A stretch of 64,000 nucleotides of DNA from the NCBI GenBank assembly GCA_009840385.1, contig VXNX01000013.1, forward strand, positions 84,723 through 148,722, written 5' to 3'. Below are positions 4,248 to 62,114 of the stretch, one piece after another. Below the pieces are notes generated by a model, which saw nothing but the letters and a program-made list of their open reading frames with translations, searched no databases and was not told where the DNA came from. The first letter of the stretch is position 1. Each line of letters opens with the position of its first letter. The stretch is from Candidatus Dadabacteria bacterium. Its GTDB lineage: Bacteria > Desulfobacterota_D > UBA1144 > Nemesobacterales > Nemesobacteraceae. Position numbers and translations under genes: made by a program.

Positions 4248-4422
4248 TTTTCAATCGTAGTAACTTATCTAACTATAAAGCGATAATCAAGATAGGATTT
4301 GCATGTCCAAACAAAAGAGACAATACCGGGATATTCCAAGGGATGCAACCCCGGGAATCCGGGGTTGCGCAGGTGCCGGGGACTTGTTACCCTTTATCAA
4401 GCTTGTTTGTCAAGCTACAATC

Positions 4423-4887: not shown

Positions 4888-4937
4888 ACGGTGAACAAAG
4901 TATGAGGAAATGCCAGATCTGAAACCTACACATATTG

Positions 4938-4943
4938 TATAAT
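4938..4943 (+). promoter_or_regulatory. Candidate extended -10 element (TGTATAATTCGG) for the RND gene
   Basis: TATAAT at 4938-4943 preceded by TG. The ATG at 4957 is only 13 nt downstream and there is no Shine-Dalgarno sequence. Confidence 0.4.
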
Positions 4944-4956
4944 TCGGCACGATCTT

Positions 4957-7287
4957 ATGAACTTGGAATCCTACATCTCAACAATTCTCGCCCGCCGCTG
5001 GCTGACCATTCTGCTCTCTTTGCTTGTTATGCTGGTCCTTGCCGCGGGAGCCACGCGCTTGATTGTGGTGGACGTAGACTTCCGCAACCACTTTAGTAAA
5101 TCCGACCCACACCTCGTTGCACTCGAACAGCTTGAAGAGACATATGCACTGTCCGATGTCGTATTGGTTGCCATAGCACCGCATGACGGCACCATTTTTA
5201 CACGGGAAACGCTTGTTGCCATTGAAGAGATGACCAAGCAGCTTTGGCGCACCCCGTACGCCACCCGCGTCGATTCTATTTCAAACTATACGCATAGCGA
5301 GGGGTTTGAAGACGAGCTGGTTGTTGAGCAGCTTATAGACGAAGCCAGTTCCCTGAGCGATACCGATATACAACGAATCATGGATATCGCGCTCGGCACT
5401 GAGGAAGTTGCCGGGCGATTCGTCTCCCGTGACGGACGAGTTGCAGGTCTGGTTGTCAGTATTATTCTTCCTGACGACAATAGGGAATTGGCCAAGCGAG
5501 AGGTTACTGACTACCTGTATGAAACTGTTGCCGACGCCGGGGAGAAATATACATCCATCGACTACCACCTTTTAGGTGGACTCATCCTCAATCGTGTCAT
5601 AGGTGACGCGCTTGATGATGAAACGGCCATCCTCGGGCCCATTGCTCTTGGAACCATGCTGCTTGTCGCCTTGGTTCTGATACGTTCGATATGGGGGACA
5701 CTTGCCATTGTGCTGATGATTGCTACCGTCATCCCATCCGCGCTGGGCTTTGCCGGGTGGACAGGCTTAAGACTGTTTGGTGAAAGCGGTGCCGCAATGT
5801 TCGTGCTGATGGCCGTGACCGTCGCTCACTCCGTGCACATTATTGAGGCAATGGCCGGGGGCTTACGCCAGGGCATGACGAGAACAGAAGCGGCAATCTA
5901 TGCCGTGCGAGTGGACGTGTGGCCTATTTTCCTTACCTCGTTCACAACCGCAATCGGATTTCTGAGCCTGAATTTCGTAGATATGCCACCGTTTAAGGTC
6001 ATGGGTAACATCGTGGCGTTCGGTTCCATGTGCGCTTTCGTCTTTTCGGTGACTCTGTTGCCCGCATTCCTGTCACTATTACCTATTCGTCCCCGGAAGC
6101 TGCGCGAAGACAAACAGGATTTTTTCGATCGTCTCAGCCGTTTTGTCATCTCCTATCGTACGATCCTTCTGTGCTTCTTTGGCATTGTGACTGTCTTTCT
6201 GGTTGCAGGCATTTCCAAGATTGAGCTTAGGGAGAACTGGCTTGAGGTTCTTGACGAGAGTTACGAGTTCCGGCGATCCGCGGATTTTCTGAGCGAGAAT
6301 TTCCCTGGCGTGGAAACCTATGAGTACTCTCTCGATTCCGGCCGTGAAGGCGCCGTCACGGATATAGAATACCTAAAACAGGTTGAGTCGTTTGCGGATT
6401 GGTACCGGGAGCAACCGGAATTTGTCCATATCTTCTCAATTGCCGATATCATGAAGCGTCTTAACAAGAACCTGCATGGTGATGACCCGGATTACTACGC
6501 CCTTCCCGACGATCCTGACCTTGCTGCGCAGTACCTTTTGCTTTACGAATTCTCTCTTCCGGTAGGCCGCGATCTGAACAACCTGATCGACCATGACCGG
6601 AGGGCAACACGCGCAACGGTCTCAGTGAAGAGTATGTCCAGCAAGGAAAAGATCGATCTTGACGATCGTTCACGTGCGTGGCTGCGGCAAAATGCCCCCG
6701 GCATGGAAACCGGCGCTACAGGAATTTCGATTGTGGGGTCTCATTCGATTCAGAGGAACATTGAAAATATGTTGCAGGGCACTTTTGTGGCGATGGCCAT
6801 CGTCTCCCTGCTGCTGTTCGCCATATTCAGAAGCATACGCCTGGGACTGGTCAGTTTGATCCCCAATTTCCTTCCGGCCGCTATGGCCATGGGACTGTGG
6901 GGGTATTTGGTGGGAGAGGTAGGAGTTCCAGCGGCGGTCGTCACCGCTATAGCATTCGGCATCATCGTGGATGACACCATCCACTTCATGACAAAATATA
7001 CGGATAGCAGAAAAGCAGGGAAATTGCCTTCGGAGTCCGTTCAAATTGCCTTTCGCTTGGTGGGCAGGGCACTGTTTACAACTACCGTAGTGTTTGGTCT
7101 GGGCTTCATGGTGTTCGGAGCATCCGGGGTGGTGGGAAACCAAGTGCTTGGTCTTTTGGTAGGAATAACGGTAATTATTGCTCTACTGGCAGATTTCTTC
7201 TTTCTTCCGCCGCTTCTGATGCTACTTGACGAGACCAAGGAAACCACCGAGGAGATTAGGGAGAGATTGAGACGCTCAACCGCATAG
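4957..7287 (+). CDS. RND-superfamily exporter (MMPL/HpnN-like, COG1033-type, two 6-TM bundles)
   Basis: 776 aa. N-terminal TM, large periplasmic loop, 5-TM bundle, second loop, second bundle. This architecture and sequence style match HpnN/MMPL lipid exporters. Confidence 0.8.
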   Translation: MNLESYISTILARRWLTILLSLLVMLVLAAGATRLIVVDVDFRNHFSKSDPHLVALEQLEETYALSDVVLVAIAPHDGTIFTRETLVAIEEMTKQLWRTPYATRVDSISNYTHSEGFEDELVVEQLIDEASSLSDTDIQRIMDIALGTEEVAGRFVSRDGRVAGLVVSIILPDDNRELAKREVTDYLYETVADAGEKYTSIDYHLLGGLILNRVIGDALDDETAILGPIALGTMLLVALVLIRSIWGTLAIVLMIATVIPSALGFAGWTGLRLFGESGAAMFVLMAVTVAHSVHIIEAMAGGLRQGMTRTEAAIYAVRVDVWPIFLTSFTTAIGFLSLNFVDMPPFKVMGNIVAFGSMCAFVFSVTLLPAFLSLLPIRPRKLREDKQDFFDRLSRFVISYRTILLCFFGIVTVFLVAGISKIELRENWLEVLDESYEFRRSADFLSENFPGVETYEYSLDSGREGAVTDIEYLKQVESFADWYREQPEFVHIFSIADIMKRLNKNLHGDDPDYYALPDDPDLAAQYLLLYEFSLPVGRDLNNLIDHDRRATRATVSVKSMSSKEKIDLDDRSRAWLRQNAPGMETGATGISIVGSHSIQRNIENMLQGTFVAMAIVSLLLFAIFRSIRLGLVSLIPNFLPAAMAMGLWGYLVGEVGVPAAVVTAIAFGIIVDDTIHFMTKYTDSRKAGKLPSESVQIAFRLVGRALFTTTVVFGLGFMVFGASGVVGNQVLGLLVGITVIIALLADFFFLPPLLMLLDETKETTEEIRERLRRSTA

Positions 7288-7363
7288 ATCGCGAAGATTC
7301 CACTGTGCGGTATGGAAAAGCTGAATAGTATGCCGAAATCGGCATAAACGTCTCCACATACCT

Positions 7364-8407
7364 CTACGGATTATAATACTGACCATCCGGATAGAACTGC
7401 CTGCAGTAGCGCCGATACTTCCCGATATCGCCGTCAACGCTGCAAAGCCTTGGAAGTGACCGATGTTTTAGATTGCTCCAGATGACGACATCCTGCATGA
7501 CGTCATGCTCCTGGGAAGCAATGAGGACCTTGTTCATGAGGCGGGTCCTGAGTCCCAGGGGAAGGAGCCGCAGCCCGTGGCCCACTCCCTTCAGATTACG
7601 AAGTTGTCGCACTTGGCTCACCAACGTCAATTCAATAATTTTGCCATCAATCGGTGTTGCAAGCACCCACAGGCGGGTGTCCATATTGATCGAATGTTCG
7701 TGAACCTCGACAATTGAATAGCCAAGCCCGTGTATACTGGCGACCGCAGAAACGTCGTACTCGAAAAGCTTGATGCCAGCAACTGTAAGGTTACGTTTGA
7801 AGTTAAAGGAGTTCCTGAGGAAGGTGCCGTCAATCGATACCGAACCGACAATGTTCACACTGTTGTAGTGGTGCACATAGTTAAGGTGTGCAACATCCAC
7901 GGAGTTCTCGGTAGTTTCCTGGGGATGTCCCGGGAAACGGAGGTGGCAGAATTCCATCCCGCTCCAGTCGGTATCCGTTGTGGAGATTTCGGGCAGGTGC
8001 CATAGAGGTTCTCGACCGCCGCTGCCCCACCAACCAAAAATGAGACCCTCTATCTCTCGTGTCTCGAACACCTTCAGCTTGGCGGTTTTTGGCGGAGGAG
8101 CGAAGGGTGTCGCCACGCATTGACCGCTCACGTCAAACTCGAAACCGTGAAAAGGACATACGAGGCAACCGTTGCGCACCCGCCCCCCTGCCTCAGGGCC
8201 AAGATCGGCTCCAAGATGCGGACAGACCGCCTCAGCAACACAAACGTTCCCTTCCCCGTTGCACCAGACAACAATCTGTTCTCCAAGCCAAGTTCTCTTT
8301 AAGAGTCCCTTTTTTTCAATCGTCTTGCGGCTGGCAACAAAATACCAGCCTTCCGGAAATGGGTAAAGCAAGGCTTCATCCTTGCGCACGTTTGAGTTTG
8401 GATTCAT
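7364..8407 (-). CDS. Rieske [2Fe-2S] non-heme-iron oxygenase, alpha-subunit type (KshA/Neverland/SdmA-like)
   Basis: CPHLGADL...CPFHGFEF Rieske ligands, plus the mononuclear-Fe motif ENSVDVAHLNYVHH (E-x3-D-x2-H-x4-H). Confidence 0.85.
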   Translation of the reverse strand: MNPNSNVRKDEALLYPFPEGWYFVASRKTIEKKGLLKRTWLGEQIVVWCNGEGNVCVAEAVCPHLGADLGPEAGGRVRNGCLVCPFHGFEFDVSGQCVATPFAPPPKTAKLKVFETREIEGLIFGWWGSGGREPLWHLPEISTTDTDWSGMEFCHLRFPGHPQETTENSVDVAHLNYVHHYNSVNIVGSVSIDGTFLRNSFNFKRNLTVAGIKLFEYDVSAVASIHGLGYSIVEVHEHSINMDTRLWVLATPIDGKIIELTLVSQVRQLRNLKGVGHGLRLLPLGLRTRLMNKVLIASQEHDVMQDVVIWSNLKHRSLPRLCSVDGDIGKYRRYCRQFYPDGQYYNP

Positions 8408-8444
8408 TTGCTGTTATTCCGCTTATCCAGCGTTAAGTACCAGA

Positions 8445-8458
8445 AATGCATTTGCATT
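8445..8458. promoter_or_regulatory. Operator-like inverted repeat AATGCA-TT-TGCATT
   Basis: Perfect 6-bp arms with a 2-nt spacer. Lies between the -10-like motif (8466-8478) and the Rieske start codon (8407). Confidence 0.3.
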
Positions 8459-8465
8459 AGCTTCA

Positions 8466-8478
8466 GGGAATTATATAT
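8466..8478 (-). promoter_or_regulatory. Promoter-like motif (minus strand reads ATATATAATTCCC) upstream of the Rieske gene
   Basis: Canonical TATAAT followed by TCCC, ~60 nt upstream of the ATG at 8407. The same motif recurs at 13534, 32384, 41417 and 20281. Confidence 0.45.
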
Positions 8479-8763
8479 CTAAACCGAAAAAGTGTAAATT
8501 CTGCTTTTTCTCGTTTGTGGGGGGAATAATAATAAGCGTTTTGCTTGCCTTTTGTTTCTAGATCAATGCACAGCTAGCCTGTTCTCTTAACATAAACTCA
8601 TAACTTGTCCTTATGAAATATTTTGGTTGCAGACAAAATGGCATCCGTCTAGCCAAGTTGATCTTGAAATTGCATCTTTCATTAAATACTATACTAGTGC
8701 TGGTGGCGACCGGCTCGTTCCACAGGACTCTTTATGAGGCAGATGCCTTTGCTTCCGTGAACT

Positions 8764-8877
8764 ATGGAAAACCTTAGATACATAATCGCTTACCTGTTGG
8801 GCTTTGTGGCTATTGCTCTTGTGGCAATTCTGATAGTAGTCGGCGGTGTTACTCTAGTTCGCTGGATTTTTGGGTAA
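8764..8877 (+). CDS. Possible 37-aa single-TM small protein (MENLRYIIAYLLGFVAIALVAILIVVGGVTLVRWIFG)
   Basis: Found by reading the sequence; it is below the ORF-track cutoff. Strongly hydrophobic core. It ends 70 nt upstream of the SMT-like gene. No clear SD. Confidence 0.25.
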   Translation: MENLRYIIAYLLGFVAIALVAILIVVGGVTLVRWIFG

Positions 8878-8946
8878 TTAAAGGGTTAAGCCCATAACCA
8901 CTTATTGCGAAAAATAATTCCATAAATTTTATAGGGGAAACCTGCT

Positions 8947-9984
8947 ATGCAACTCCGCAAATTATTGAACGGACTGAAGACCGCGTACAGCGGGTCGAAC
9001 GTCGCCCGCCGCGTGCAATACTTCAATGGATGGACAGACAGGGCGTCCGCGGAGAATACCGGTGCGGCGGACTATGATCACACCAAGACCGTCAAGGAAT
9101 ACTACGACCTTTGCAGCGAGCTCATGGTGTTCGGCTGGGGCGAATCCCTTCACTTCGCACCGCTGTCGCCCCGCGAGAGCCTGGAGGACTCCAAGATTCG
9201 GCATCAGCGGCTGATGATTGCCAAGCTGGAGCTGCACGAGGGGATGACGGTGGTCGATATCGGTTGCGGGATCGGCGGCCCGATGCGCCGTGTCGTCCGC
9301 GAGGCCGGAGTCAGGGTCGTCGGGGTCAACAACAATGAAATCCAGTTGGACAAGGCAAAATCGTTGAACGTTGAGGCAGGGCTCGACCACATGGTCGACT
9401 ACATCGCGTGCAGCTTCATGGACATGAGCGCCATCGCGGATGACACCTTCGACCGGGGCTACGCGATCGAATCGACGTGCCACGCGCCAAAAAAGACGGA
9501 CGCGTTCGCCGAGATCTACCGCGTGCTGAAACCCGGAGCCCTCTTCTGGGGTCAGGAAATGTGCCTTACGGACAAGTTCGATCCCGACGACAACCGGCAC
9601 CAAGCCATCAAGCAGGAACTAATGCACGGCATCGCGCTCAAGGATATCGCGACGATGGGCGAGGTGGACCGGGCGCTTGAAACCGTGGGATTCCAGGTCG
9701 TCGAGGGGGCGGACCTAGCCGTCGAGGAGAACGGTCCGACCACGCCGTGGTACCAACCCATGGAAACCCGGCACGGAACGCTGGACAATTTCCTGCCTAG
9801 GCTTCCGCTGGGGCGTAAGGTGTTCATCGGGGCATCCAGGCTGGCCGAGATACTGGGGGTGTTCCCGAAAGGTTCCGCGGAAGTCTTCAGTCTGATGGAT
9901 CGGACCGCCGACGCCTATGTCGCGGGCGGCAGGACCGGGGTCTTCACGCCGCTATATTGCTTCCTGGCACGCAAACCCCTCTAA
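8947..9984 (+). CDS. Sterol C-24 methyltransferase-like SAM-dependent methyltransferase (Erg6/SMT family)
   Basis: Collinear with yeast Erg6 as I recall it: EYYDL..FGWGESLHF, SAM motif VVDIGCGIGGP, YAIESTCHAP (Erg6 YAIEATCHAP), IYRVLKPG, and the C-terminal sterol-MT domain ending FTPLYCFLARKP (Erg6 FTPMMLFVARKP). Confidence 0.85.
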   Translation: MQLRKLLNGLKTAYSGSNVARRVQYFNGWTDRASAENTGAADYDHTKTVKEYYDLCSELMVFGWGESLHFAPLSPRESLEDSKIRHQRLMIAKLELHEGMTVVDIGCGIGGPMRRVVREAGVRVVGVNNNEIQLDKAKSLNVEAGLDHMVDYIACSFMDMSAIADDTFDRGYAIESTCHAPKKTDAFAEIYRVLKPGALFWGQEMCLTDKFDPDDNRHQAIKQELMHGIALKDIATMGEVDRALETVGFQVVEGADLAVEENGPTTPWYQPMETRHGTLDNFLPRLPLGRKVFIGASRLAEILGVFPKGSAEVFSLMDRTADAYVAGGRTGVFTPLYCFLARKPL

Positions 9985-10119
9985 ATCCCCGCATTCCCTA
10001 GTGCTCCAGCGGATCCTCCCATGGCGCACTTCAGGCGGACAATTTGCACATCCGCTCGGCAATGCGGAATTTCAGCTTTTGGTTCGGTTTCATCGCAGGT
10101 AAGGGTATATCTTAGGGAA

Positions 10120-11568
10120 TCAATAAGCTGCGCGTCTTGCAATTTCTTTAAGCATCTGCCTGAAAATAATCCAGTGGATTGGATAAAGACCATACCAGTA
10201 AAGCAGACCGCCGAGACCCAAGGGCTGGAAAACGGCCGTCTGCGTTATCTGACTGCCCCTTTCAGCGGGCTCGACTTCAAACTGAAGCCACGCCTGACCA
10301 GGCAACCTCATTTCCGCTCTCAGGCTCAGCAGTCGATTCTCTTCATACGCCTCAACACGCCAGAAATCCAGAGGGTCGCCCTGGCGCAAGTCGGTCGGAT
10401 GCCGCCTGCCCCTCCGCATCCCTACTCCACCCACCAGCAGATCAACCAGGCCGCGCAGATACCATATCCAAGTGGCAAAATACCAGCCCTGCTCTCCGCC
10501 AATGCGTCGTATGGGCGCGAAGGCTCGGGCGGGGTTCACTTTGACGACGGCCTGCTGGCGGTCAACAAGTTGTGAGCCGAAACGTCTTCTGCCCCAAGAC
10601 GGCCGGTTACCGCTTGAAGACACGGCGTCGCTCCAGCGGGTCTGGGCAATTTCCATATTTTCCTGCTTAAGGGCACGGTCTATCGCTTGGCGCACTCCCA
10701 AGGGATGTACCGGGAAACGCTTCAGGGCCGTTTTATCGCGGACGATGGTCTCGTTGCGTAAACCGTCAACGAGTTTCCTTCCCACCCGGGCGTAAAGGGG
10801 AGTCACAAGACCCAGCCAGAGACTTGAGAGATTGGGACTCAGTACAGGCACCGGAATCATGAAGCGCCGCACGCCGATCTGGCGTGCGTACTCCTGCATC
10901 AACTCACCGTAGGTAACCTGGTCAGGACCGGCGATTTCAAAAACCGCGCTGTCTTGCAGTTCCAGATCCAAGCCACAAATGAGATAGGCTATTACGTCTT
11001 CGATGGCGATGGGCTGGGTTAATGTTCTCACCCAGCTCGGGGTAACCATCAGCGGCAGCCTGTCAACCAGGCTTCGCAGCAACTCAAAAGAAAGCGATCC
11101 CGAGCCGATTATGATCGAGGCGCGAAATTCCAAGGTCAGGGGACCTTCTGAGGCCAGAATATCCCCTACTTCCCTGCGGCTCGCTAAGTGAGAGGAAAGT
11201 TCACCATCTCCGAACAAGCCTCCCAGATAAATAATTCGACGCACCCCATGTCGGCGTGCAACCCGGGCAAAATTACGCGCCCCGATACGGTCCTGCTCCT
11301 CGAAGTTGTCCCCGGAACCCATGGAATGGACCATGTAGTAGGCCGTGTCCACCCCTTCAAGCGCGATCTCGAGAGAATCAGGGTCAAGCACATCGCCGGC
11401 GATAATCCGGGTATCGGGGGAGAAACGACCGGCGAGATATCCGGGATTGCGGGCAAGACAACGCACCGGCTCTCCCCTTCCCTCCAAAGCCGGGACCAGC
11501 CGCCCGCCAACATAACCGCTTGCCCCCGTTACCAGTATAATCCGGTCTTCTTTCTTATCATCGGACAT
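10120..11568 (-). CDS. Atypical SDR / NmrA-like NAD(P)-binding protein with C-terminal DUF2867-like domain
   Basis: ILVTGASGYVGGRL Rossmann motif at the N-terminus. The ~150-aa C-terminal region resembles DUF2867 fusions. GC-rich by eye. Confidence 0.7.
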   Translation of the reverse strand: MSDDKKEDRIILVTGASGYVGGRLVPALEGRGEPVRCLARNPGYLAGRFSPDTRIIAGDVLDPDSLEIALEGVDTAYYMVHSMGSGDNFEEQDRIGARNFARVARRHGVRRIIYLGGLFGDGELSSHLASRREVGDILASEGPLTLEFRASIIIGSGSLSFELLRSLVDRLPLMVTPSWVRTLTQPIAIEDVIAYLICGLDLELQDSAVFEIAGPDQVTYGELMQEYARQIGVRRFMIPVPVLSPNLSSLWLGLVTPLYARVGRKLVDGLRNETIVRDKTALKRFPVHPLGVRQAIDRALKQENMEIAQTRWSDAVSSSGNRPSWGRRRFGSQLVDRQQAVVKVNPARAFAPIRRIGGEQGWYFATWIWYLRGLVDLLVGGVGMRRGRRHPTDLRQGDPLDFWRVEAYEENRLLSLRAEMRLPGQAWLQFEVEPAERGSQITQTAVFQPLGLGGLLYWYGLYPIHWIIFRQMLKEIARRAAY

Positions 11569-11611
11569 TAACTTCTCGATGCAATTATTAACTGAGATTA
11601 ATTAACCTCTT

Positions 11612-12523
11612 TTAAAAAACATCGCTGAGCTTTTTTGCTGTCCTGAGCTTTTCAAATGTGGTGTAGCGTAGCCCCTGCATAGCTCCAAGCGGAGCGTCGC
11701 TGAAAGGTATCGGCCCAATCTCTTGTGCTTTCTCAGAGAAAACAATCCGATACTTACCACTCTCCCCATATGGTTCGATCCGGTCAACCGGCGCATAGTG
11801 TGTGATTGCGGAAACTGGATTTGTTTGATAAGCGGCGATGTATTTAATCTTTCCAAGCATCCCACCAGAGATACGTATTGCATGCCAAGAGTCTTCTCCG
11901 AGAAAGACCTTCTTAAACCCCTCTTCACGTGCGGGCACTATTACAGTATCGGGTTTGTGCGAAGGCAAATTGGGCAGTATATCTTCAGTAGTAGCTCTTG
12001 GCGTAGCAACTGGTTTCGGAAACTCGAACACTCGCAAGCCCACCAATGGGAGTATTTGGAGGATTTCCTTTAGAAATCTCTTTGTATCCGCTTTCTCAGA
12101 TTCAGTCATCACAGGTTCTTGCGGAACATTACCGTTGGCCAAATGGCAGCGGTTAGCTTGCGCTGCACGATCCAGTAGCGCATATTCCAGCCAAGTAATA
12201 TGAGCCCGGTTGAGACCATCATTGGCTGAAACAAACACGATCCCATGATCCCAGAAATCCTTATCCTTATAGTGAGACTCAATACGTTTATGGACACCAT
12301 CCGCCTGACCAACATAAATAGTTGGCAACTCATCATCCTCATTCTCATAACCCTTTAACATATAAACACCGGCTCGAGTGAACTCAGGACGCTGCTTGAT
12401 TTCTGCCCATTTGGAACGTGGAAAGGCCAAACCGACCCCTGTCCAATTCATATGGTCAATCACCATAAGGCTTTCTGGGTCGCCATCGGGGACATATATG
12501 TGGATTGTAAACGCTTCAGCCAT
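11612..12523 (-). CDS. GIY-YIG nuclease family protein with C-terminal DUF4357-like domain
   Basis: AGVYMLKGY ... TIYVGQADGVHKRIESH (GIY / YVG / Arg-His block), then a ~110-aa C-terminal domain. Lower GC than its neighbours by eye. Confidence 0.7.
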   Translation of the reverse strand: MAEAFTIHIYVPDGDPESLMVIDHMNWTGVGLAFPRSKWAEIKQRPEFTRAGVYMLKGYENEDDELPTIYVGQADGVHKRIESHYKDKDFWDHGIVFVSANDGLNRAHITWLEYALLDRAAQANRCHLANGNVPQEPVMTESEKADTKRFLKEILQILPLVGLRVFEFPKPVATPRATTEDILPNLPSHKPDTVIVPAREEGFKKVFLGEDSWHAIRISGGMLGKIKYIAAYQTNPVSAITHYAPVDRIEPYGESGKYRIVFSEKAQEIGPIPFSDAPLGAMQGLRYTTFEKLRTAKKLSDVF

Positions 12524-12831
12524 TAATTGCTCTGGTTTTTAATACTCCCACACTGAGAACTTAATATTGATGATTTCATTAGACCTAGAACTGGAGCATA
12601 CTCCAAACAAATTCTATGTAATGAGAAAATATATGTAAGAACATGTTTAATTGTCAATCATGTATGCACAACTATAAGAACGTGTTCTGAGTTTGCTAAA
12701 ATTCAGGTTTTGACATTTCTTCAAATTTCTTCTTATGGTTCAGGAAAATCACATCCAATCCCCTACCTTGATGGAAATTGCTAAAAAAATGTTTTTGCCC
12801 AAAAAGGAAAAGAGTCCTCAGTATACGGAAA

Positions 12832-13500
12832 CTAGGAAAGCAGTTTCTGAATTCTCTTTATCCTCTCTTCTTCCGTTTCCTCTTCCTTCAAGCTTGGGGG
12901 AATCCCGTTTCCTCTTATCACGGCGGGCCTTTCGCCAACTTCGGCATGCCACCTAGTAAGATTCGGAAAAGCCCTGAGATCCAGTTCCGCCCAGTCGTAA
13001 GCGTTTATCCAGGGCCATGTGGCTATGTCGGCGATCGAATACTCTTCTGCAAGATACTCCACTTCAGAGAGTCTTCCGTCGAGTATCGAGTAGAGCCTTT
13101 TAGTCTCCTCGGTGTATCTCTTTATGGCATAGGGTATTTTTTCCGGGGCGTACTTTAAAAAGACGTTCAGCTGTCCCTGCATGGGCCCTACCGCCGACAT
13201 CTGGAACATGAGCCACTGGATGCACGTTGTTCTGCGACTGTCCCCTAGGGGCGGAAGAAAGTTTCCGAACTTGTCGGCAAGATATATGAGTATGGCTCCT
13301 GACTCAAAAACCGCCGTGCCGTCATCATTGTCAACTATTGCGGGTATTTTCCCGTTCGGGTTTATCTCGAGAAACCACGGCTCCTTGTGTTCAAGCTCAG
13401 AGAGGTTAAGAGCGTGAATCTTGTAGGCGGCTCCCAGTTCTTCAAGCATTATTGAAACCTTCTTGCCGTTCGGCGTGGCCGCCGTGTAGAGATCGATCAT
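12832..13500 (-). CDS. Glutathione S-transferase (Nu-class, YfcG/YghU-like)
   Basis: [36 protein letters not shown]-terminal thioredoxin-like domain plus a helical C-terminal domain. Confidence 0.85.
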
Positions 13501-13533
13501 TTTTTGCCTCGGTTTATATCGGGCCCTCAGTTA

Positions 13534-13546
13534 GGGAATTATATAC
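13534..13546 (-). promoter_or_regulatory. Promoter-like motif (minus strand GTATATAATTCCC) upstream of the GST gene
   Basis: TATAAT-TCCC lies ~35 nt upstream of the ATG at 13500. A GAGG SD lies between them. Confidence 0.45.
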
Positions 13547-13630
13547 AATAGTTACGAAAAATCCGGTCAATTTAACTTGTTTCCTGCATCGGCCGTATAT
13601 GTTAAATTTTCTTTTGGAAGGAGTCAGACG

Positions 13631-13702
13631 ATGACCGCAACAGGTCACGCTCCCGAAATGAAACGTAGATTGAGTACGGCTGGACGAAGGATGCCCAGAT
13701 GA
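13631..13702 (+). CDS. Possible 23-aa upstream ORF (MTATGHAPEMKRRLSTAGRRMPR) coupled to the hydroxylase gene
   Basis: Strong SD (GGAAGGAG) 7 nt upstream of the ATG at 13631. Its TGA (13700-13702) overlaps the ATG (13699) of the next gene as ATGA. Confidence 0.25.
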   Translation: MTATGHAPEMKRRLSTAGRRMPR

Positions 13703-14334
13703 CCTATATAATAAGCGCAATCCTGGTGATGAGCGGATTTATGGCCGGAGCCCAGCTGGCCTACTCTAAGCTCTATGACTGGAGAATAGCCGAGGGAGAC
13801 GGCAGTCGTCTCAAGGACCGTTACAGAAATGCTTCAATGAACGGAACGATCGCCGTGGCGCTTTACCTTGTCGCGATCGTGATGTTCGGGGAACTCCTGA
13901 TAGACTTGGATGCAGCTTCCACCTGGTACAAGCCCATCCTTGTCCTGCTGCTTTACGATTTCGGGTACTACTGGCTGCATCGTCTGCTGCATGTGCGGAA
14001 AGTCATGCAGAAAGTGCACTGGGTTCATCACATGAACCTGCATCCCACTGCCGTCGACTCCCTGTATCTGCACCCGGTGGAAATGATCGCGGGGCTGGCT
14101 TTCCTGTTAATCTCGATAGTGATAGTGGGCCCCTTGGGTATCGGAGCGTTTCTGGCGGTCGTTTTGCTTCATACCATCATCAACATACTGCATCATACGA
14201 ATCTGCAGCTACCCTATCGTCTGGCATGGCTCGCGAACCACTGGGCCTCAAGTCACGATGCGCATCATAGCCAGGGAGGAAATTACGGAGTGATTACGCC
14301 TGTATGGGACTGGATATTCGGAACGCGCTCATAA
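13699..14334 (+). CDS. Fatty-acid hydroxylase superfamily membrane di-iron enzyme (sterol desaturase / C-4 methyl oxidase, Erg3/Erg25-like)
   Basis: Three His boxes (HRLLH, HWVHH, HDAHH) and 4 predicted TM segments in 211 aa. Confidence 0.8.
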   Translation: MTYIISAILVMSGFMAGAQLAYSKLYDWRIAEGDGSRLKDRYRNASMNGTIAVALYLVAIVMFGELLIDLDAASTWYKPILVLLLYDFGYYWLHRLLHVRKVMQKVHWVHHMNLHPTAVDSLYLHPVEMIAGLAFLLISIVIVGPLGIGAFLAVVLLHTIINILHHTNLQLPYRLAWLANHWASSHDAHHSQGGNYGVITPVWDWIFGTRS

Positions 14335-15410
14335 AAGGTCCCGTACTGGTAACCGGCGGATGTGGATTCATCGGAGGGGCGATTGTCCACGCATTGGCCG
14401 ACGAGGGGCGGGATGTGCGGGTAGTCAGTCCGCATTGCCATTCGTTTCGGTCCGACGTGCGATTTCTGAACGTGGATATCAGAGACCTGTCTGCCCTCGT
14501 CCGGGCTTGCCAAGGATGCGAGACGGTTATTCATTGCGCGTCCGTCGTACAGACCCGCAACACGGCACGGGATGAAATGTGGTCCGTGAACTACGGCGGG
14601 ACGGTCAACGTGATAGAAGCATGCAGGAGGGCTGGGGTACGCAAACTCGTGCATATCAGTTCGGCCAGCGTGGTTTTCGAGGGCAGGGATATCGAGGCCG
14701 GAGACGAGACCCTTCCCTATGCGGAAGTATCTATGAGCGCCTACGTGGACAGCAAGATAGAGGCGGAACGGCGTGTCCTGGAATTCGCTACAGAGGATGT
14801 AACCCGGGCATGCGCGCTGCGTCCTCACCTTGTCTTCGGTCCGGGAGACCAACGTTTCCTCCCGAACATTCTCAAACGGGCAGACGGGGCAGGTATCCGG
14901 GAAGTTGGTCGGAGGGAGAAGCTGTCCGATTTCGTCTATGTCGACAATGTGGTCGATGCCGTGCTGGCCGCGGAACGGGCCCTTGACTCGAACGGGCTGG
15001 TATCCGGTCAGGCATATTTCGTGACAAACGCGGAGCCGGTCCCGTTTTTCGAGTTCATAGAACGCCTGCTTATGGCGTCAGGGTACGGTCCCATCCGACG
15101 ACGTATTCCCTACTGGGTGGCGTACGCGGGAGCGGGCATTGTGGAGGGCTTCCATGCCGTGATACGACGGGGTTTGGTCCCGGAGGACGGCCTGTCCCGG
15201 TTCGCGGTCCGCTACTTGAATACGCATCACTACTTCCGTATTGACAAGGCGTGCCGCGACCTGCATTGGCAACCCCGCGTATCCCTTGCCGAGGGGATAG
15301 CACGCACGGCCGATTCGTTGCACGATTCGGCGTACGACAGGGCGTTACGTGTTCAACAAGAACCCTCTATCGCAAAGGAACCAGACGATAAAGGTGATGT
15401 CCCGCGATAA
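14304..15410 (+). CDS. 3-beta-hydroxysteroid dehydrogenase/isomerase-family NAD(P) enzyme (Erg26/NSDHL-like)
   Basis: VLVTGGCGFIGGAIV Rossmann motif, catalytic YVDSK (YxxxK), and extended-SDR architecture. Overlaps the preceding gene by 31 nt, so the two are probably co-transcribed. Confidence 0.8.
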   Translation: MGLDIRNALIKGPVLVTGGCGFIGGAIVHALADEGRDVRVVSPHCHSFRSDVRFLNVDIRDLSALVRACQGCETVIHCASVVQTRNTARDEMWSVNYGGTVNVIEACRRAGVRKLVHISSASVVFEGRDIEAGDETLPYAEVSMSAYVDSKIEAERRVLEFATEDVTRACALRPHLVFGPGDQRFLPNILKRADGAGIREVGRREKLSDFVYVDNVVDAVLAAERALDSNGLVSGQAYFVTNAEPVPFFEFIERLLMASGYGPIRRRIPYWVAYAGAGIVEGFHAVIRRGLVPEDGLSRFAVRYLNTHHYFRIDKACRDLHWQPRVSLAEGIARTADSLHDSAYDRALRVQQEPSIAKEPDDKGDVPR

Positions 15411-15466
15411 CTGGACCTTCGACGCACAGATCGTAACCGCCGTAGGAATGTTCAGCGCAGGGTCCA

Positions 15467-21111: not shown

Positions 21112-22008
21112 GTGGAAAATGAAAGTATGCTGGATATCAATTTTTTTAACCATCCACTCGCAGGTACACCGTTTGGTACAGCATTTGACCTGTGCTTGAT
21201 CTCGGCGGCGATAGTGTGGCTATTGTCCGTGGTAACTCGCGAATACTCTTGGGTTGATCGGTTGTGGTCAATTTGTCCAATCATCTATTGCCTTATCGTT
21301 GCAGCAAGTGTTGACTTTGACGTGCCGCGTTTAAATCTCATGTTGATTCTCGTATCGCTTTGGGGAATTCGTCTCACATTCAACTTTGCGCGCAAAGGAG
21401 GTTTTTGGAAAGGAGGTGAAGACTATCGATGGGGCATAGTACGCGAAAAAGTTGGCGAACTCAAGTTTCAAGTGATTAATATCCTGTTTATTGCGTTCGG
21501 GCAGATGCTCATAATTTGGTTGTTTACTGCTCCAGTGCATCTGGCATGGTTAGGACGCGATACGTCGCTTACTTGGATTGATGGAGTATCTGTAACTTTA
21601 TTCCTGGTGTTCCTTGTTGGTGAAACCATTGCTGATGAGCAAATGTGGGCGTTTCAGCAGGCTAAGAAACAGAAGATCGCAGCAGGCGAGGAAATTACGC
21701 AACCATTTATCAAGACTGGCCTTTTTGCTTTTTGCCGCCATCCGAATTATTTTTGCGATATAAGCCTGTGGTGGGTGTTCTATCTCTTTGCCGTTGCGGC
21801 TACGGGGCAGTGGTTGAACTGGTCTGGGCTCGGCTTCATTATATTAACGTTGCTTTTCATTTTTACTTCAAAATTGGTAGAGTCCATTTCTCTTGAGAGG
21901 TATCCTACCTATCGGGAATATCAGGAATCGGTTCCACAGCTAATGCCATTTACGCGGATAGGCTGCCCGAAGGTGCGAAACGACAATGGAACTGAGCTGC
22001 TCAGCTAA
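21112..22008 (+). CDS. DUF1295 / steroid 5-alpha-reductase-fold membrane protein (Erg4/Erg24-ICMT superfamily)
   Basis: Multi-TM, with the C-terminal block FCRHPNYFCDISLWWVFYL typical of DUF1295. GTG at 21112 or ATG at 21127 as start. Confidence 0.75.
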   Translation: MENESMLDINFFNHPLAGTPFGTAFDLCLISAAIVWLLSVVTREYSWVDRLWSICPIIYCLIVAASVDFDVPRLNLMLILVSLWGIRLTFNFARKGGFWKGGEDYRWGIVREKVGELKFQVINILFIAFGQMLIIWLFTAPVHLAWLGRDTSLTWIDGVSVTLFLVFLVGETIADEQMWAFQQAKKQKIAAGEEITQPFIKTGLFAFCRHPNYFCDISLWWVFYLFAVAATGQWLNWSGLGFIILTLLFIFTSKLVESISLERYPTYREYQESVPQLMPFTRIGCPKVRNDNGTELLS

Positions 22009-39036: not shown

Positions 39037-39080
39037 GTTCCCGAAAAAACAACCATTTTTATTTTCAGGAGAGCATATCG

Positions 39081-43096: not shown

Positions 43097-43097
43097 C

Positions 43098-44963: not shown

Positions 44964-45253
44964 GCCTGTACCTCTACCGACAGTCTGTTGTTGCTCACCA
45001 GCTTCCGGTAGGGCAGCATGAGTCCGCCTGTGACGATGGCCATCTGTTCGATAGTGTCTAGTTCCTGGATGTTGTGGCAACTAGCGAACTTATCTACGAA
45101 CCATCGGCGGGCGGCTTCCTCGTCGGGAAACATCCGCACCAGTTCTATGAGGGAAATGCCTTTCCTGTGGGCATTGGCGGGTGCCTTACGTGCCATAGTC
45201 TTCGTCCGTTGTAATTTAGGCTGAAGTATGCCCGAACCGGAATCAAATGCCAA
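44960..45253 (-). pseudogene. Internally deleted IS1595-family (ISXO2-like) transposase relic
   Basis: The N-terminal block SLIELVRMFPDEEAARRWF is joined directly to the C-terminal block HNIQELDTIEQMAIV..L.YRKL. The zinc-ribbon and DDE core are missing. Confidence 0.55.
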
Positions 45254-61994: not shown

Positions 61995-62042
61995 TGGCTG
62001 TACCACGTAGTTAGTCGAGGAGGTGGAGCTGAAGCTACATAC

Positions 62043-62114
62043 AGCCGACGAGGGGATTCGAACCCCTGACCTGCTCATTACGAGTGAGCTGCTCTACCAC
62101 TGAGCTACATCGGC
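62043..62114 (-). tRNA. tRNA-Thr (CGT)
   Basis: Hand-folded cloverleaf with acceptor GCCGATG/CGTCGGC and anticodon loop CTCGTAA. CCA is not encoded. Confidence 0.9.

What the first reader, a model, noticed from the sequence alone, without database searches (positions are those of the whole stretch)
4957..15410. Neighbourhood of sterol-type tailoring enzymes in a bacterial contig
Seen: six relevant genes lie within 10.5 kb. They are an RND-superfamily lipid-exporter-like protein (4957-7287), a Rieske/non-heme-Fe oxygenase (7364-8407), a protein collinear with eukaryotic sterol C-24 methyltransferase Erg6 (8947-9984), an SDR+DUF2867-type protein (10120-11568), and a three-His-box Erg3/Erg25-superfamily hydroxylase (13699-14334) overlapping an Erg26/NSDHL-type 3beta-HSD (14304-15410). 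A DUF1295 (steroid-reductase-fold) membrane protein lies 6 kb further on (21112-22008). Known: in eukaryotes these families carry out sterol side-chain methylation, C-4 demethylation and double-bond reduction. In Methylococcus, bacterial C-4 demethylation was assigned to a Rieske oxygenase plus an SDR (SdmA/SdmB). Inference: the locus tailors sterols or closely related triterpenoids. No squalene epoxidase or oxidosqualene cyclase is in the window. The substrate would therefore be made elsewhere in the genome or taken from a eukaryotic host or prey. This combination of enzymes in one bacterial locus is unusual to my knowledge.
Basis: partly seen in the sequence, partly recalled or inferred. Interest (0 to 1): 0.85.

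Follow-up and report, generated by a model that had tools for sequence, protein, structure and literature searches.

The report
Sterol-tailoring gene module, sponge symbiont
A bacterium living inside a marine sponge carries a small, horizontally spread gene set (a lipid pump, an iron-sulfur oxygenase and a sterol side-chain methyltransferase) that most likely remodels sterols. Gene sets of this kind are already described in sponge symbionts, so this is a further example and not a new phenomenon.

Summary
The window comes from an Ircinia ramosa (sponge) metagenome scaffold of a Dadabacteria-type symbiont.

Only three genes form a conserved unit:
- an HAE3/MMPL RND transporter (4957-7287);
- a KshA-like Rieske oxygenase (7364-8407);
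- a divergent 'type B' sterol C-24 methyltransferase paralogue (8947-9984).

This trio is kept in all close relatives. Expanded versions occur in at least 8 taxon groups of sponge-symbiont MAGs. They add a GPP34-P450 fusion, an FAD amine-oxidase-like protein and an ERG4/ERG24 reductase. SMT identity between these groups is 74-86%. In Binatia and Nitrospirales the cassette lies beside SQMO-OSC. In the Binatia locus it also lies beside CYP51, ERG24 and SdmA/SdmB homologues. The sterol link is therefore well supported.

The Rieske protein is not SdmA. The FA-hydroxylase/3β-HSD pair is a separate two-gene module, also found in bacteria with no sterol context. The SDR-DUF2867 and DUF1295 genes are variable accessories.

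Whether the substrate is made by this bacterium or taken up is unresolved.

Bacterial SMTs and steroid clusters in sponge symbionts are published (Hoshino & Gaucher 2021, Kelly 2022, Brown 2023). Verdict: a new member of a known kind, of moderate interest.

The parts
4957..7287 (+). Core gene 1: an HAE3/MMPL-family RND lipid transporter (776 aa). It is the putative sterol transporter of the module.
   Evidence: Pfam MMPL 122 bits. NCBIfam HAE3 161 bits, HpnN 95 bits and BstA 29 bits, all below the curated cut-offs. The nearest solved structure is HpnN, weakly. It is 91-94% identical in the 6 Dadabacteria relatives and 50-70% identical next to the SMT in Alpha- and Gammaproteobacteria and Nitrospirales.
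7364..8407 (-). Core gene 2: a KshA-like Rieske non-heme-iron oxygenase (347 aa) with an unknown sterol-oxidising step.
   Evidence: Pfam Rieske plus KshA_C. The CPH...CPFH cluster motif and the E-x3-D-x2-H-x4-H iron motif are visible. The best PDB hits are KshA entries 4qdc and 2zyl. The SdmA model gives only 30 bits. The same family lies within 10 kb of the SMT in 55 of 81 loci.
8408..8946 (.). Divergent intergenic region between the Rieske and SMT genes. It holds promoter-like sites in both directions and a 37-codon hydrophobic ORF (8765-8878).
   Evidence: Minus-strand TTTACA-17-TATAAT at 8498-8470 (11/12 matches). Plus-strand TTGAAA-17-TACTAT at 8664-8692. Sequence. The roughly 290 bp upstream of the SMT do not align with relatives. 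These are consensus matches only.
8947..9984 (+). Core gene 3: the 'type B' sterol C-24 methyltransferase paralogue (345 aa).
   Evidence: Methyltransf_11 plus Sterol_MT_C. It is 34% identical to recalled Erg6 end to end, with VDIGCGIGGP and YAIESTCHAP conserved. Region I reads LMVFGWG where Erg6 has FYEYGWG. More than 575 relatives exist, and the best 80 are 74-86% identical across at least 8 taxon groups. It forms a clade distinct from type A SMTs. GC is 60.7% against 51.7% for the window.
10120..11568 (-). Accessory gene, variably present: an atypical SDR (NAD-binding) fused to DUF2867 (482 aa). Its role is unknown.
   Evidence: Pfam. Present at 91-94% identity in 4 of 6 species-representative relatives and absent from L007, L018, L087 and L143-145. 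The nearest PDB entries are generic epimerase/NmrA-like proteins.
11612..12523 (-). Intervening phage-family gene (303 aa) that is not part of the chemistry. It has a GIY-YIG-like motif.
   Evidence: No Pfam or NCBIfam hit. phrog_12629 at E 5e-41. The motif TIYVGQA...RIESHY is visible. It is present in only some relatives.
13699..14334 (+). Separate module, gene 1: a three-His-box membrane di-iron oxygenase of the FA_hydroxylase ('sterol desaturase') superfamily, 211 aa.
   Evidence: Pfam 93 bits. His boxes. It is 33% identical over 153 aa to human MSMO1 as recalled from memory. It always lies directly upstream of the HSD homologue. A 39% homologue lies next to the SMT in Nitrospirales L070 and L083.
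14304..15410 (+). Separate module, gene 2: an extended SDR of the 3β-HSD/NSDHL/OleD family (368 aa), probably translationally coupled to the FA hydroxylase.
   Evidence: 3Beta_HSD 194 bits. The best PDB hit is human NSDHL 6jkg at E 2e-38. The best NCBIfam hit is an OleD-like reductase at 233 bits (cut-off 580), and SdmB gives 76 bits. Homologues run from 98% in other I. ramosa Dadabacteria to 72-75% in Ca. Poriferisodalis and about 50% in free-living marine Gammaproteobacteria. The region 13535-15456 has no counterpart in the 6 species-representative relatives.
21127..22008 (+). DUF1295 membrane protein (293 aa from ATG 21127). It is a strain-variable gene separated from the module by housekeeping genes, and I do not consider it part of the module.
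   Evidence: Pfam DUF1295 159 bits. No PDB or NCBIfam match. Absent at this site in L005, L087 and L143-145. The exact product occurs only on the window's own scaffold and duplicates. No tblastn similarity to the cassette's ERG4/ERG24 reductase.

Best explanation
The window is chromosomal DNA of a Dadabacteria-type symbiont of the sponge Ircinia ramosa.

Bases 4957-9984 hold a reduced version of a sterol-tailoring cassette that circulates among sponge-symbiont bacteria. It has three separately transcribed genes.
1. The HAE3/MMPL RND transporter moves the sterol between membranes or across the envelope (inferred).
2. [quoted passage not shown]
3. The KshA-like Rieske oxygenase carries out an O2-dependent hydroxylation or desaturation of the same lipid. 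This step is different from SdmA-type C-4 demethylation (inferred).

No cyclase lies within reach, and published tables report no ERG24-CYP51-LSS cluster in sponge Dadabacteria. I therefore favour exogenous sterols as the substrate, from the host or from neighbouring symbionts. This last step is the least certain.

The FA-hydroxylase/3β-HSD pair at 13699-15410 is an independent, mobile two-gene oxidation module. It may act on the same lipid but is not part of the conserved cassette. SDR-DUF2867, the phage-family gene and DUF1295 are accessory insertions.
For: Source: the SMT lies on ENA scaffold ENGE20-1_SAMN12347673 scaffold_2 (735 kb) and in NCBI GCA_009835375.1. Flanking housekeeping genes are 88-97% identical to MAGs labelled Candidatus Dadabacteria or Thermodesulfobacteriota.

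SMT identity: Sterol_MT_C domain and SMT regions.

Conservation:
- RND-Rieske-SMT is kept at about 91% nucleotide identity in 6 of 6 species-representative relatives, while both flanks vary.
- Across 81 loci an RND is present in 61, the Rieske family in 55, the GPP34-P450 fusion in 60, the amine oxidase in 38 and ERG4/ERG24 in 9.

Sterol link:
- The cassette RND of Chloroflexota hits the Patched-SSD and Sterol-sensing Pfam models.
- An ERG4/ERG24 reductase sits directly upstream of the RND in Dadabacteria L004 and L005.
- An SQMO-OSC fusion lies beside the cassette in L055, L079 and L083. In L055 a P450 (presumed CYP51), an ERG4/ERG24-family gene, an SdmA homologue (408 bits) and an SdmB homologue (301 bits) lie there too.

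HGT: SMT identity is 74-86% across phyla and its GC is 9 points above the window mean. The type B clade is tight, with Dadabacteria monophyletic.

Purifying selection: dN/dS is 0.21 between co-resident strains.

Literature:
- Bacterial SMTs from sponge symbionts methylate desmosterol and 24-methylenecholesterol in vitro (PMC10070321).
- SMT1/ERG6 is enriched in Ircinia MAGs (PMC9531527).
- 'CSG present = No' for the two UBA1144 Dadabacteria rows I could read, one of them jk18x11bins.6. That MAG is 96.6% complete and is the MAG of my locus L011. UBA1144 is absent from the paper's list of CSG-bearing classes.
Against: - No biochemical datum exists for this SMT type. It matches by identity level (about 35% to Erg6) the second paralogue in Brown et al.'s clusters. 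Some tested SMTs there were inactive on desmosterol and 24-methylenecholesterol, and I could not find out which.
- Region I has MVF where canonical SMTs have YEY.
- Hoshino & Gaucher 2021 state that Dadabacteria possess a full eukaryote-like steroid pathway, including ERG25-27 and SdmAB. This argues against the scavenging sub-claim.
- I could not scan the rest of this genome.
- No reductase partner for the Rieske protein is in the module.
- The three genes are not an operon: they sit on opposite strands with separate promoter-like sites.
Confidence: 0.65

Rival explanations
1. The module is the tailoring end of a complete de novo sterol pathway. The squalene epoxidase, cyclase, CYP51 and C-14 reductase genes lie elsewhere in the same Dadabacteria genome. 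The FAH/HSD pair is its ERG25/ERG26-type C-4 demethylase.
For: - Hoshino & Gaucher 2021 report that Dadabacteria have MVA, SQS, Stage 2 genes and both SdmAB and ERG25-27.
- The HSD's best solved relative is NSDHL.
- The FAH has the Erg25-type His boxes.
- In Binatia and Nitrospirales the same SMT type is physically inside de novo clusters.
Against: - Kelly et al. list 'CSG present = No' for sponge UBA1144 Dadabacteria MAGs, including a 96.6%-complete close relative. UBA1144 is not among their CSG-bearing classes.
- No cyclase lies in the 64-kb window or in the 21-kb loci of 7 Dadabacteria.
- Relatives have small genomes of 1.6-2.1 Mb.
- The FAH/HSD pair also occurs in Zhongshania, in a P450/GMC-oxidoreductase/aldehyde-dehydrogenase context, and in Ca. 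Poriferisodalis among MoCo genes.
Confidence: 0.3
2. The Erg6-like enzyme methylates a non-sterol lipid, such as another triterpenoid, a polyprenoid or an unsaturated acyl chain. The oxygenase and pump handle that lipid, and the sterol-like annotations are only family resemblance.
For: - Region I differs from canonical SMTs.
- The enzyme also hits the CMAS and cyclopropane-fatty-acid-synthase models.
- The cassette's amine-oxidase-like flavoprotein and the window's DUF1295 belong to families that, to my knowledge, also sit in bacterial cyclopropane/furan fatty-acid loci.
- Some SMT homologues in Brown et al. were inactive on two sterols.
Against: - The Sterol_MT_C domain scores well above its cut-off, and the protein aligns collinearly with Erg6.
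- The cassette repeatedly contains ERG4/ERG24 and an SSD-type RND, and it is embedded in OSC/CYP51/SdmAB clusters.
- It is sister to type A SMTs that carry the canonical YEYGWG motif.
Confidence: 0.1
3. The locus serves uptake and catabolism or detoxification of host sterols. A KshA-like oxygenase opens the way to ring degradation.
For: The Rieske protein's closest solved relatives are KshA 3-ketosteroid 9α-hydroxylases. In other phyla a P450 and a flavoprotein accompany it. An RND/MMPL transporter is adjacent.
Against: - A SAM-dependent side-chain methyltransferase is anabolic.
- No KshB, KstD, Hsa or β-oxidation side-chain genes are in the window or in the cassette loci.
- The association with ERG4/ERG24 and with biosynthetic clusters points to tailoring.
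Confidence: 0.05

Closest known systems
Bacterial sterol biosynthesis and SMT gene clusters of sponge symbionts (Brown et al. 2023, PMC10070321; 'CSGs' of Kelly et al. 2022, PMC9531527; 'SMT accompanied by three uncharacterized genes' in Hoshino & Gaucher 2021, PMC8237579)
   Same: Same habitat. The window comes from the I. ramosa metagenome project, whose public MAGs Kelly et al. re-analysed. The same SMT family occurs in two paralogue types (about 42% and about 35% identity to Erg6). Both show inter-phylum HGT. In Binatia and Nitrospirales the window-type SMT is inside such clusters.
   Different: The window has no SQMO-OSC, CYP51, ERG24 or SdmAB. It carries only the divergent type B SMT, with a transporter and a KshA-like oxygenase, as an 'orphan' tailoring module in a small genome.
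SdmA/SdmB C-4 sterol demethylase of Methylococcus capsulatus
   Same: SdmA is also a Rieske oxygenase acting on sterols, and SdmB is also an extended SDR of the 3β-HSD/HpnA type.
   Different: The window Rieske has a KshA_C catalytic domain, not VanA_C, and scores 30 bits on the SdmA model. A sponge-symbiont SdmA homologue scores 408 bits. The window HSD scores 76 bits on SdmB, against 301 bits for a true homologue. Both Rieske types co-exist in L055.
KshA (3-ketosteroid 9α-hydroxylase oxygenase) and related Rieske sterol oxygenases
   Same: Same domain pair (Rieske plus KshA_C), intact cluster and iron ligands, and KshA is the best solved relative.
   Different: The match is only about 81 bits at E 1e-21 to KshA. 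No KshB-type reductase is adjacent. The context is biosynthetic or tailoring, not catabolic. The reaction is unknown.
HpnN (hopanoid) and BstA (4-methylsterol) RND transporters of the HAE3 family
   Same: An MMPL/HAE3 RND encoded next to polycyclic-triterpenoid genes. The cassette's Chloroflexota version carries sterol-sensing/Patched signatures.
   Different: Scores are far below the equivalog cut-offs (HpnN 95 vs 752, BstA 29 vs 1400). No BstB/BstC-like partners were seen. Direction of transport is unknown.
Erg25/MSMO1 plus Erg26/NSDHL (eukaryotic C-4 demethylation)
   Same: A three-His-box membrane oxygenase immediately followed by a 3β-HSD-family SDR whose best solved relative is NSDHL.
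   Different: The oxygenase is about 90 residues shorter than the MSMO1 sequence I recalled from memory (211 vs 293 aa). The SDR scores higher on the OleD-like model. The pair also occurs in bacteria without sterol genes, and no Erg27 analogue is adjacent.
GPP34_L (GPP34-cytochrome P450 fusion) of sponge symbionts (Microbiome 2025, PMC11706023)
   Same: It is the most frequent neighbour of the window-type SMT in other phyla (60 of 81 loci) and has the same sponge-restricted distribution.
   Different: It is absent from the window and from all 7 Dadabacteria loci. The paper interprets it as a phagosome-evasion factor and does not mention sterols.

Membership tests
Sterol C-24 methyltransferase (Erg6/SMT) | Class I SAM-methyltransferase core with a glycine-rich SAM motif (Region II, LDVGCGVGGP in Erg6) | tested here: met
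   VDIGCGIGGP at residues 103-112. Methyltransf_11, _25 and _31 hits.
Sterol C-24 methyltransferase (Erg6/SMT) | C-terminal domain specific to sterol methyltransferases (Pfam Sterol_MT_C) | tested here: met
   PF08498 at 55.3 bits against a cut-off of 21.7, residues 288-344. The alignment to recalled Erg6 runs collinearly to the C-terminus.
Sterol C-24 methyltransferase (Erg6/SMT) | Region I aromatic motif YEYGWG and Region III YAIEATCHAP | tested here: inconclusive
   Region III is conserved (YAIESTCHAP). Region I keeps FGWGxSxHF, but YEY is replaced by MVF. Type A bacterial paralogues keep FYEYGWG.
Sterol C-24 methyltransferase (Erg6/SMT) | Genomic association with other sterol genes | tested here: met
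   ERG4/ERG24, an SSD-type RND, SQMO-OSC, CYP51 and SdmA/B homologues lie next to the same SMT type in other genomes.
Sterol C-24 methyltransferase (Erg6/SMT) | SAM-dependent methylation of a Δ24 sterol in vitro | not testable with these tools
   Brown et al. tested 24 metagenomic SMTs. I could not establish whether a type B enzyme was among the active ones.
SdmA (4β-methylsterol monooxygenase) | Full-length match to the SdmA model (NF052579), with a VanA_C-type catalytic domain and an adjacent SdmB | tested here: not met
   The window Rieske scores 30 bits, on the Rieske domain only, and its catalytic domain is KshA_C. The positive control L055:7658-8746 scores 408 bits over 4-343/351 with VanA_C and sits next to an SdmB homologue.
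KshA-like Rieske oxygenases | Rieske CxH...CxxH cluster ligands, a mononuclear iron motif and the KshA_C domain | tested here: met
   CPH(x17)CPFH and ENSVDVAHLNYVH. KshA_C 90 bits. KshA is the top PDB hit.
KshA-like Rieske oxygenases | A dedicated KshB-type ferredoxin reductase partner and a 3-ketosteroid substrate | tested here: not met
   No reductase is encoded in the module or in the cassette loci inspected. The substrate cannot be tested here.
Erg25/MSMO1 C-4 methyl oxidase | Three His boxes of the FA_hydroxylase superfamily | tested here: met
   HRLLH, HWVHH and HDAHH. PF04116 at 93 bits.
Erg25/MSMO1 C-4 methyl oxidase | Specific orthology (full-length similarity and consistent sterol context) | tested here: inconclusive
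   The protein is 211 aa against about 293. It is 33% identical over 153 aa to MSMO1 recalled from memory. There is no PDB hit or specific NCBIfam hit. A 39% homologue lies beside the SMT in Nitrospirales, but the FAH-HSD pair also occurs without sterol genes.
Erg26/NSDHL sterol-4α-carboxylate 3-dehydrogenase | 3β-HSD-family extended SDR closest to NSDHL among characterised proteins | tested here: inconclusive
   NSDHL 6jkg is the best PDB hit at E 2e-38, with the next at 2e-17. The best NCBIfam model is an OleD-like reductase at 233 bits. Homologues at about 50% identity are common in marine Gammaproteobacteria.
HpnN/BstA-type HAE3 RND lipid transporters | MMPL/RND architecture with scores reaching the family cut-offs | tested here: inconclusive
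   The MMPL domain is met. HAE3 scores 161 (cut-off 352), HpnN 95 (752) and BstA 29 (1400). The window protein has no sterol-sensing Pfam hit, but the cassette's Chloroflexota RND does.
Cluster of steroid genes (CSG: ERG24-CYP51-LSS) of Ircinia symbionts | Presence of the three core genes | tested here: not met
   None is in the 64-kb window. Kelly et al.'s Table S1 gives 'No' for UBA1144 Dadabacteria MAGs.

The most novel reading that the evidence does not exclude
The type B SMT, with its RND pump and KshA-like oxygenase (plus the GPP34-P450 fusion elsewhere), may be a sponge-symbiont-specific, horizontally shared system that remodels sterols the bacterium does not make itself. These would be host or community sterols. 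It could be responsible for some of the unconventional sponge side chains (24-isopropyl, 26-methyl and similar) whose enzymatic origin is still open. This reading would also reinterpret GPP34-P450, currently proposed as a phagosome-evasion factor, as a sterol- or membrane-lipid-modifying enzyme. The allele swapping seen at the SMT gene between co-resident strains would then reflect diversification of product specificity.
Probability: 0.3. Interest if true: 0.75.

Novelty: new member of a known kind. Interest (0 to 1): 0.45.

Why it matters
Side-chain-alkylated steranes such as 24-isopropylcholestane and 26-methylstigmastane are used as the oldest chemical evidence for animals. As of 2025 it is still stated that whether the relevant methyltransferases reside in sponges, in their bacterial symbionts, or in both has not been established (PMC12541326).

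This window adds a clean example of a streamlined symbiont lineage that keeps an SMT, an oxygenase and a lipid pump with no cyclase in the window or in relatives' 21-kb loci. It therefore points to a concrete, testable candidate for symbiont remodelling of host sterols.

The comparative work also shows that this divergent SMT paralogue, not the canonical one, travels with the sponge-restricted GPP34-P450 fusion. That link is absent from the paper that described the fusion.

Tried and rejected
1. I tested whether the Rieske and HSD proteins are SdmA and SdmB. This was rejected by NCBIfam scores, with a positive control from L055.
2. I looked for cassette partners in the window by tblastn (GPP34-P450, amine oxidase, ERG4/ERG24, LppX-like, MFS). 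None was found.
3. I searched all ORFs and six-frame translations for the OSC DCTAE motif. It occurs only in L055, L079 and L083, not in the window or the Dadabacteria loci.
4. I checked whether the amine-oxidase gene at 62240-63637 could be squalene-related (HpnE). It is protoporphyrinogen oxidase.
5. I tried to learn which SMTs of Brown et al. were inactive, and whether they are type B. Neither the text nor the supplements held here say.
6. PDB sequence searches for the FA hydroxylase and for DUF1295 found nothing.
7. I could not test for a cyclase elsewhere in this genome.
8. My first conclusion, that FAH/HSD is strain-specific, was corrected. The pair is shared by several I. ramosa Dadabacteria MAGs at the same site, though it is absent from the species representatives from other assemblies.
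9. An exact look-up of DUF1295 with the GTG start failed. The ATG 21127 start matched only the window's own scaffold.
10. No paper in the held library characterises the SMT-Rieske-P450-RND cassette.

Full report
OBSERVATION

- 4957-7287 (+): MMPL/RND.
- 7364-8407 (-): Rieske plus KshA_C.
- 8947-9984 (+): Methyltransf_11 plus Sterol_MT_C.
- 10120-11568 (-): NAD-binding SDR plus DUF2867.
- 13699-14334 (+): FA_hydroxylase.
- 14304-15410 (+): 3Beta_HSD, overlapping the FA_hydroxylase ORF.
- 21112-22008 (+): DUF1295.

Two genes inside the span were not mentioned. One is a phage-family gene at 11612-12523 (phrog_12629, E 5e-41; GIY-YIG-like motif). The other is a glutathione-dependent disulfide-bond oxidoreductase-like GST at 12832-13500.

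The rest of the 64 kb is housekeeping: HtpG, HemB, L31, futalosine-pathway genes, ArgJ, PyrD, the glyoxylate shunt, a type I R-M system, RecF, a CDC48-like ATPase, Obg, QueG, PPi-PFK, HemY and four tRNAs. No squalene epoxidase, cyclase, CYP51 or C-14 reductase is present.

SOURCE

The exact SMT protein is encoded on ENA scaffold ENGE20-1_SAMN12347673_METAG-scaffold_2 (735 kb) and in NCBI assembly GCA_009835375.1. From its accession block and sample names I take this to be the Ircinia ramosa sponge metagenome set. Kelly et al. re-analysed 113 public MAGs from that species.

Housekeeping neighbours are 88-97% identical to MAGs labelled Candidatus Dadabacteria or Thermodesulfobacteriota, with genomes of 1.6-2.1 Mb where closed.

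WHAT IS CONSERVED

A scan of one genome per GTDB species found more than 575 relatives of the SMT. The best 80 are 74-86% identical. They come from MAGs labelled Dadabacteria/Thermodesulfobacteriota, Dehalococcoidia/Chloroflexota, Alpha- and Gammaproteobacteria, Acidimicrobiales, Binatia, Nitrospirales and Gemmatimonadetes. As far as isolate names show, these are sponge-metagenome bins.

In the six Dadabacteria species representatives (L004-L007, L011, L018), RND-Rieske-SMT is retained at about 91% nucleotide identity inside a conserved housekeeping backbone. Both edges are hot spots of variation.
- Upstream, a peroxiredoxin and/or an ERG4/ERG24-family reductase come and go.
- Downstream, SDR-DUF2867 is present in 4 of 6 relatives, and the phage-family gene in some.
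- The segment 13535-15456, which holds FAH-HSD, is replaced by an OMP β-barrel gene.

DUF1295 is missing at its site in L005, L087 and L143-145.

FAH-HSD is shared, at the same site, by other I. ramosa Dadabacteria bins, namely GCA_009837925.1 and GCA_009842755.1.

THE WIDER CASSETTE

I clustered all ORFs of 81 loci. The SMT travels with the following partners:
- an MMPL-type RND in 61 loci;
- the same KshA-like Rieske family in 55;
- a 675-aa GPP34-cytochrome P450 fusion in 60;
- an FAD amine-oxidase-like protein in 38;
- an ERG4/ERG24 reductase in 9;
- an LppX-like lipoprotein plus an MFS transporter in about 15.

The Chloroflexota RND hits the Patched-SSD and Sterol-sensing Pfam models.

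In Binatia (L055) and Nitrospirales (L079, L083) the cassette is contiguous with an SQMO-OSC fusion that carries the DCTAE motif. In L055 it also lies beside a P450 (198 bits on the generic Pfam p450 model, presumed CYP51), an ERG4/ERG24-family gene, an SdmA homologue (NF052579, 408 bits) and an SdmB homologue (301 bits).

This is strong guilt-by-association evidence that the cassette acts on sterols.

The Dadabacteria version, including the window, is the most reduced: RND, Rieske and SMT only.

THE SMT

The protein aligns end to end with yeast Erg6 at 34% identity. It keeps the SAM motif and Region III, but Region I reads LMVFGWG where Erg6 has FYEYGWG.

The loci contain two paralogue types.
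- Type A keeps FYEYGWG and is 40-44% identical to Erg6.
- Type B, the window type, is 33-38% identical to Erg6.

This mirrors the about 42% and about 35% SMT pairs listed for sponge-symbiont clusters by Brown et al.. Those authors showed that 8 of 10 symbiont SMTs methylate desmosterol and that two A. aerophoba enzymes make 24-isopropyl side chains. I could not determine whether any type B enzyme was among the active ones.

In an NJ tree the type B clade is tight, and Dadabacteria are monophyletic within it. The SMT gene's GC is 60.7% against 51.7% for the window. This fits old inter-phylum transfer followed by retention.

THE OTHER ENZYMES

The Rieske protein has intact cluster and iron ligands. 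Its nearest solved relatives are KshA proteins. It is clearly not SdmA: it scores 30 bits, on the Rieske domain only. Both Rieske types co-exist in L055, so it must catalyse a different step.

The HSD's best solved relative is human NSDHL at E 2e-38. Its best NCBIfam model is an OleD-like reductase.

Homologues of the HSD always have the small FA hydroxylase immediately upstream. They occur in three settings:
- at 98% identity in sister strains;
- at 72-75% in the actinobacterial sponge symbiont Ca. Poriferisodalis, among molybdenum-cofactor genes;
- at about 50% in free-living marine Gammaproteobacteria such as Zhongshania, next to a P450, a GMC oxidoreductase and an aldehyde dehydrogenase.

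FAH-HSD is therefore an independent, widely distributed two-gene oxidation module. A 39% FAH homologue beside the SMT in Nitrospirales keeps a sterol role possible. Hoshino & Gaucher's statement that Dadabacteria have ERG25-27 may refer to genes like these.

MECHANISM (mostly inferred)

The RND protein shuttles sterol. The SMT alkylates the side chain with SAM. The Rieske oxygenase hydroxylates or desaturates the sterol. Where an ERG4/ERG24 reductase is present, it would reduce the resulting Δ24(28) bond.

The three genes have separate promoter-like sites and are not an operon.

Whether the substrate is endogenous is unresolved. Kelly et al. give 'CSG present = No' for sponge UBA1144 Dadabacteria, including the 96.6%-complete MAG of my locus L011. 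Hoshino & Gaucher, in contrast, describe Dadabacteria as having a full pathway. I could not scan the rest of the genome.

COMPARISON AND NOVELTY

Several related findings are already published:
- bacterial SMTs in sponge symbionts (PMC10070321);
- steroid gene clusters and SMT enrichment in Ircinia MAGs, with HGT (PMC9531527);

The window is therefore a new member of a known kind. The residual novelty has three parts:
- the orphan, cyclase-less arrangement in a streamlined lineage;
- the uncharacterised type B paralogue;
- its tight linkage, in other phyla, to the GPP34-P450 fusion, which a 2025 paper describes as sponge-symbiont-exclusive without any mention of sterols.

No paper in the held library characterises the cassette.

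Interest is moderate, at 0.45.

Noticed in passing
Related loci, e.g. L015:11079-13106 (-), L084:11077-13110 (-), L088:5890-7917 (-). Not present in the window.: The GPP34-cytochrome P450 fusion ('GPP34_L') sits directly next to the window-type SMT in 60 of 81 loci. It is usually flanked by an SSD-type RND, the KshA-like Rieske and an FAD amine-oxidase-like gene. A 2025 paper reports the fusion as exclusive to sponge symbionts and interprets it as a phagosome-evasion factor. That paper never mentions sterols or methyltransferases. The linkage suggests a sterol or lipid-modifying role.
   Followed up: partly
Window 8947-9984 compared with L143:7287-8324: A co-resident I. ramosa Dadabacteria strain is 98-100% identical in flanking proteins (dS 0.02-0.09). 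Its SMT is only 89% identical (dS 0.29, dN/dS 0.21). This indicates an allele replacement confined to the SMT gene, still under purifying selection. HemB also shows raised dS (0.27).
   Followed up: partly
L004:4653-5792 (+) and L005:4652-5791 (+). The corresponding window junction is 4888-4956.: Two Dadabacteria relatives carry a 379-aa ERG4/ERG24-family sterol reductase directly upstream of the RND gene. The window has only 69 bp there. A 77-bp piece of the window's peroxiredoxin 5' region (4281-4357) lies inverted upstream of the RND in L004-L006, which hints at a rearrangement at this junction.
   Followed up: partly
Window 11612-12523 (-): A 303-aa protein with no Pfam or NCBIfam hit but a strong match to phage family phrog_12629 (E 5e-41) and a GIY-YIG-like motif. 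It is an inserted mobile-element-type gene between SDR-DUF2867 and the GST, and it is present in only some relatives.
   Followed up: partly
L147:1-7047 (Zhongshania sp. GCA_018067195.1) and L146:5348-7017 (Ca. Poriferisodalis): The FA-hydroxylase plus 3β-HSD-like pair is a conserved two-gene unit outside sponge Dadabacteria. In Zhongshania it follows a P450, a MarR regulator, a GMC oxidoreductase and an aldehyde dehydrogenase. That arrangement looks like a lipid or hydrocarbon oxidation operon of unknown substrate.
   Followed up: partly
Window 8765-8878 (+): A 37-codon ORF encoding a single hydrophobic helix (MENLRYIIAYLLGFVAIALVAILIVVGGVTLVRWIFG) lies just upstream of the SMT start, in a stretch that does not align with relatives. 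It may be spurious or a small membrane peptide.
   Followed up: no
Window 37153-41354 (+): A glyoxylate-shunt pair with unusually long proteins: malate synthase of 627 aa (only 248 bits on the malate synthase A model, below its cut-off) and isocitrate lyase of 757 aa, matched in two separate stretches.
   Followed up: no
Window 41606-45080 (-): A type I restriction-modification module (HsdS-like, 496 aa; a fused HSDR_N/N6_Mtase/Eco57I-type methylase, 660 aa) lies between the glyoxylate genes and MgtE.
   Followed up: no
Window 62043-62114 (-) and 60300-62078 (-): The tRNA-Thr(CGT) gene overlaps the first 36 nt of the long ORF called for the lactate/oxalate-formate-type MFS transporter. The transporter's real start is probably further downstream.
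   Followed up: no
Window 50747-52858 (+): A full-length CDC48-family double-AAA ATPase (797 bits on TIGR01243, just under its cut-off) in a bacterial genome, next to RecF, a prepilin peptidase and an AmiA-like amidase.
   Followed up: no
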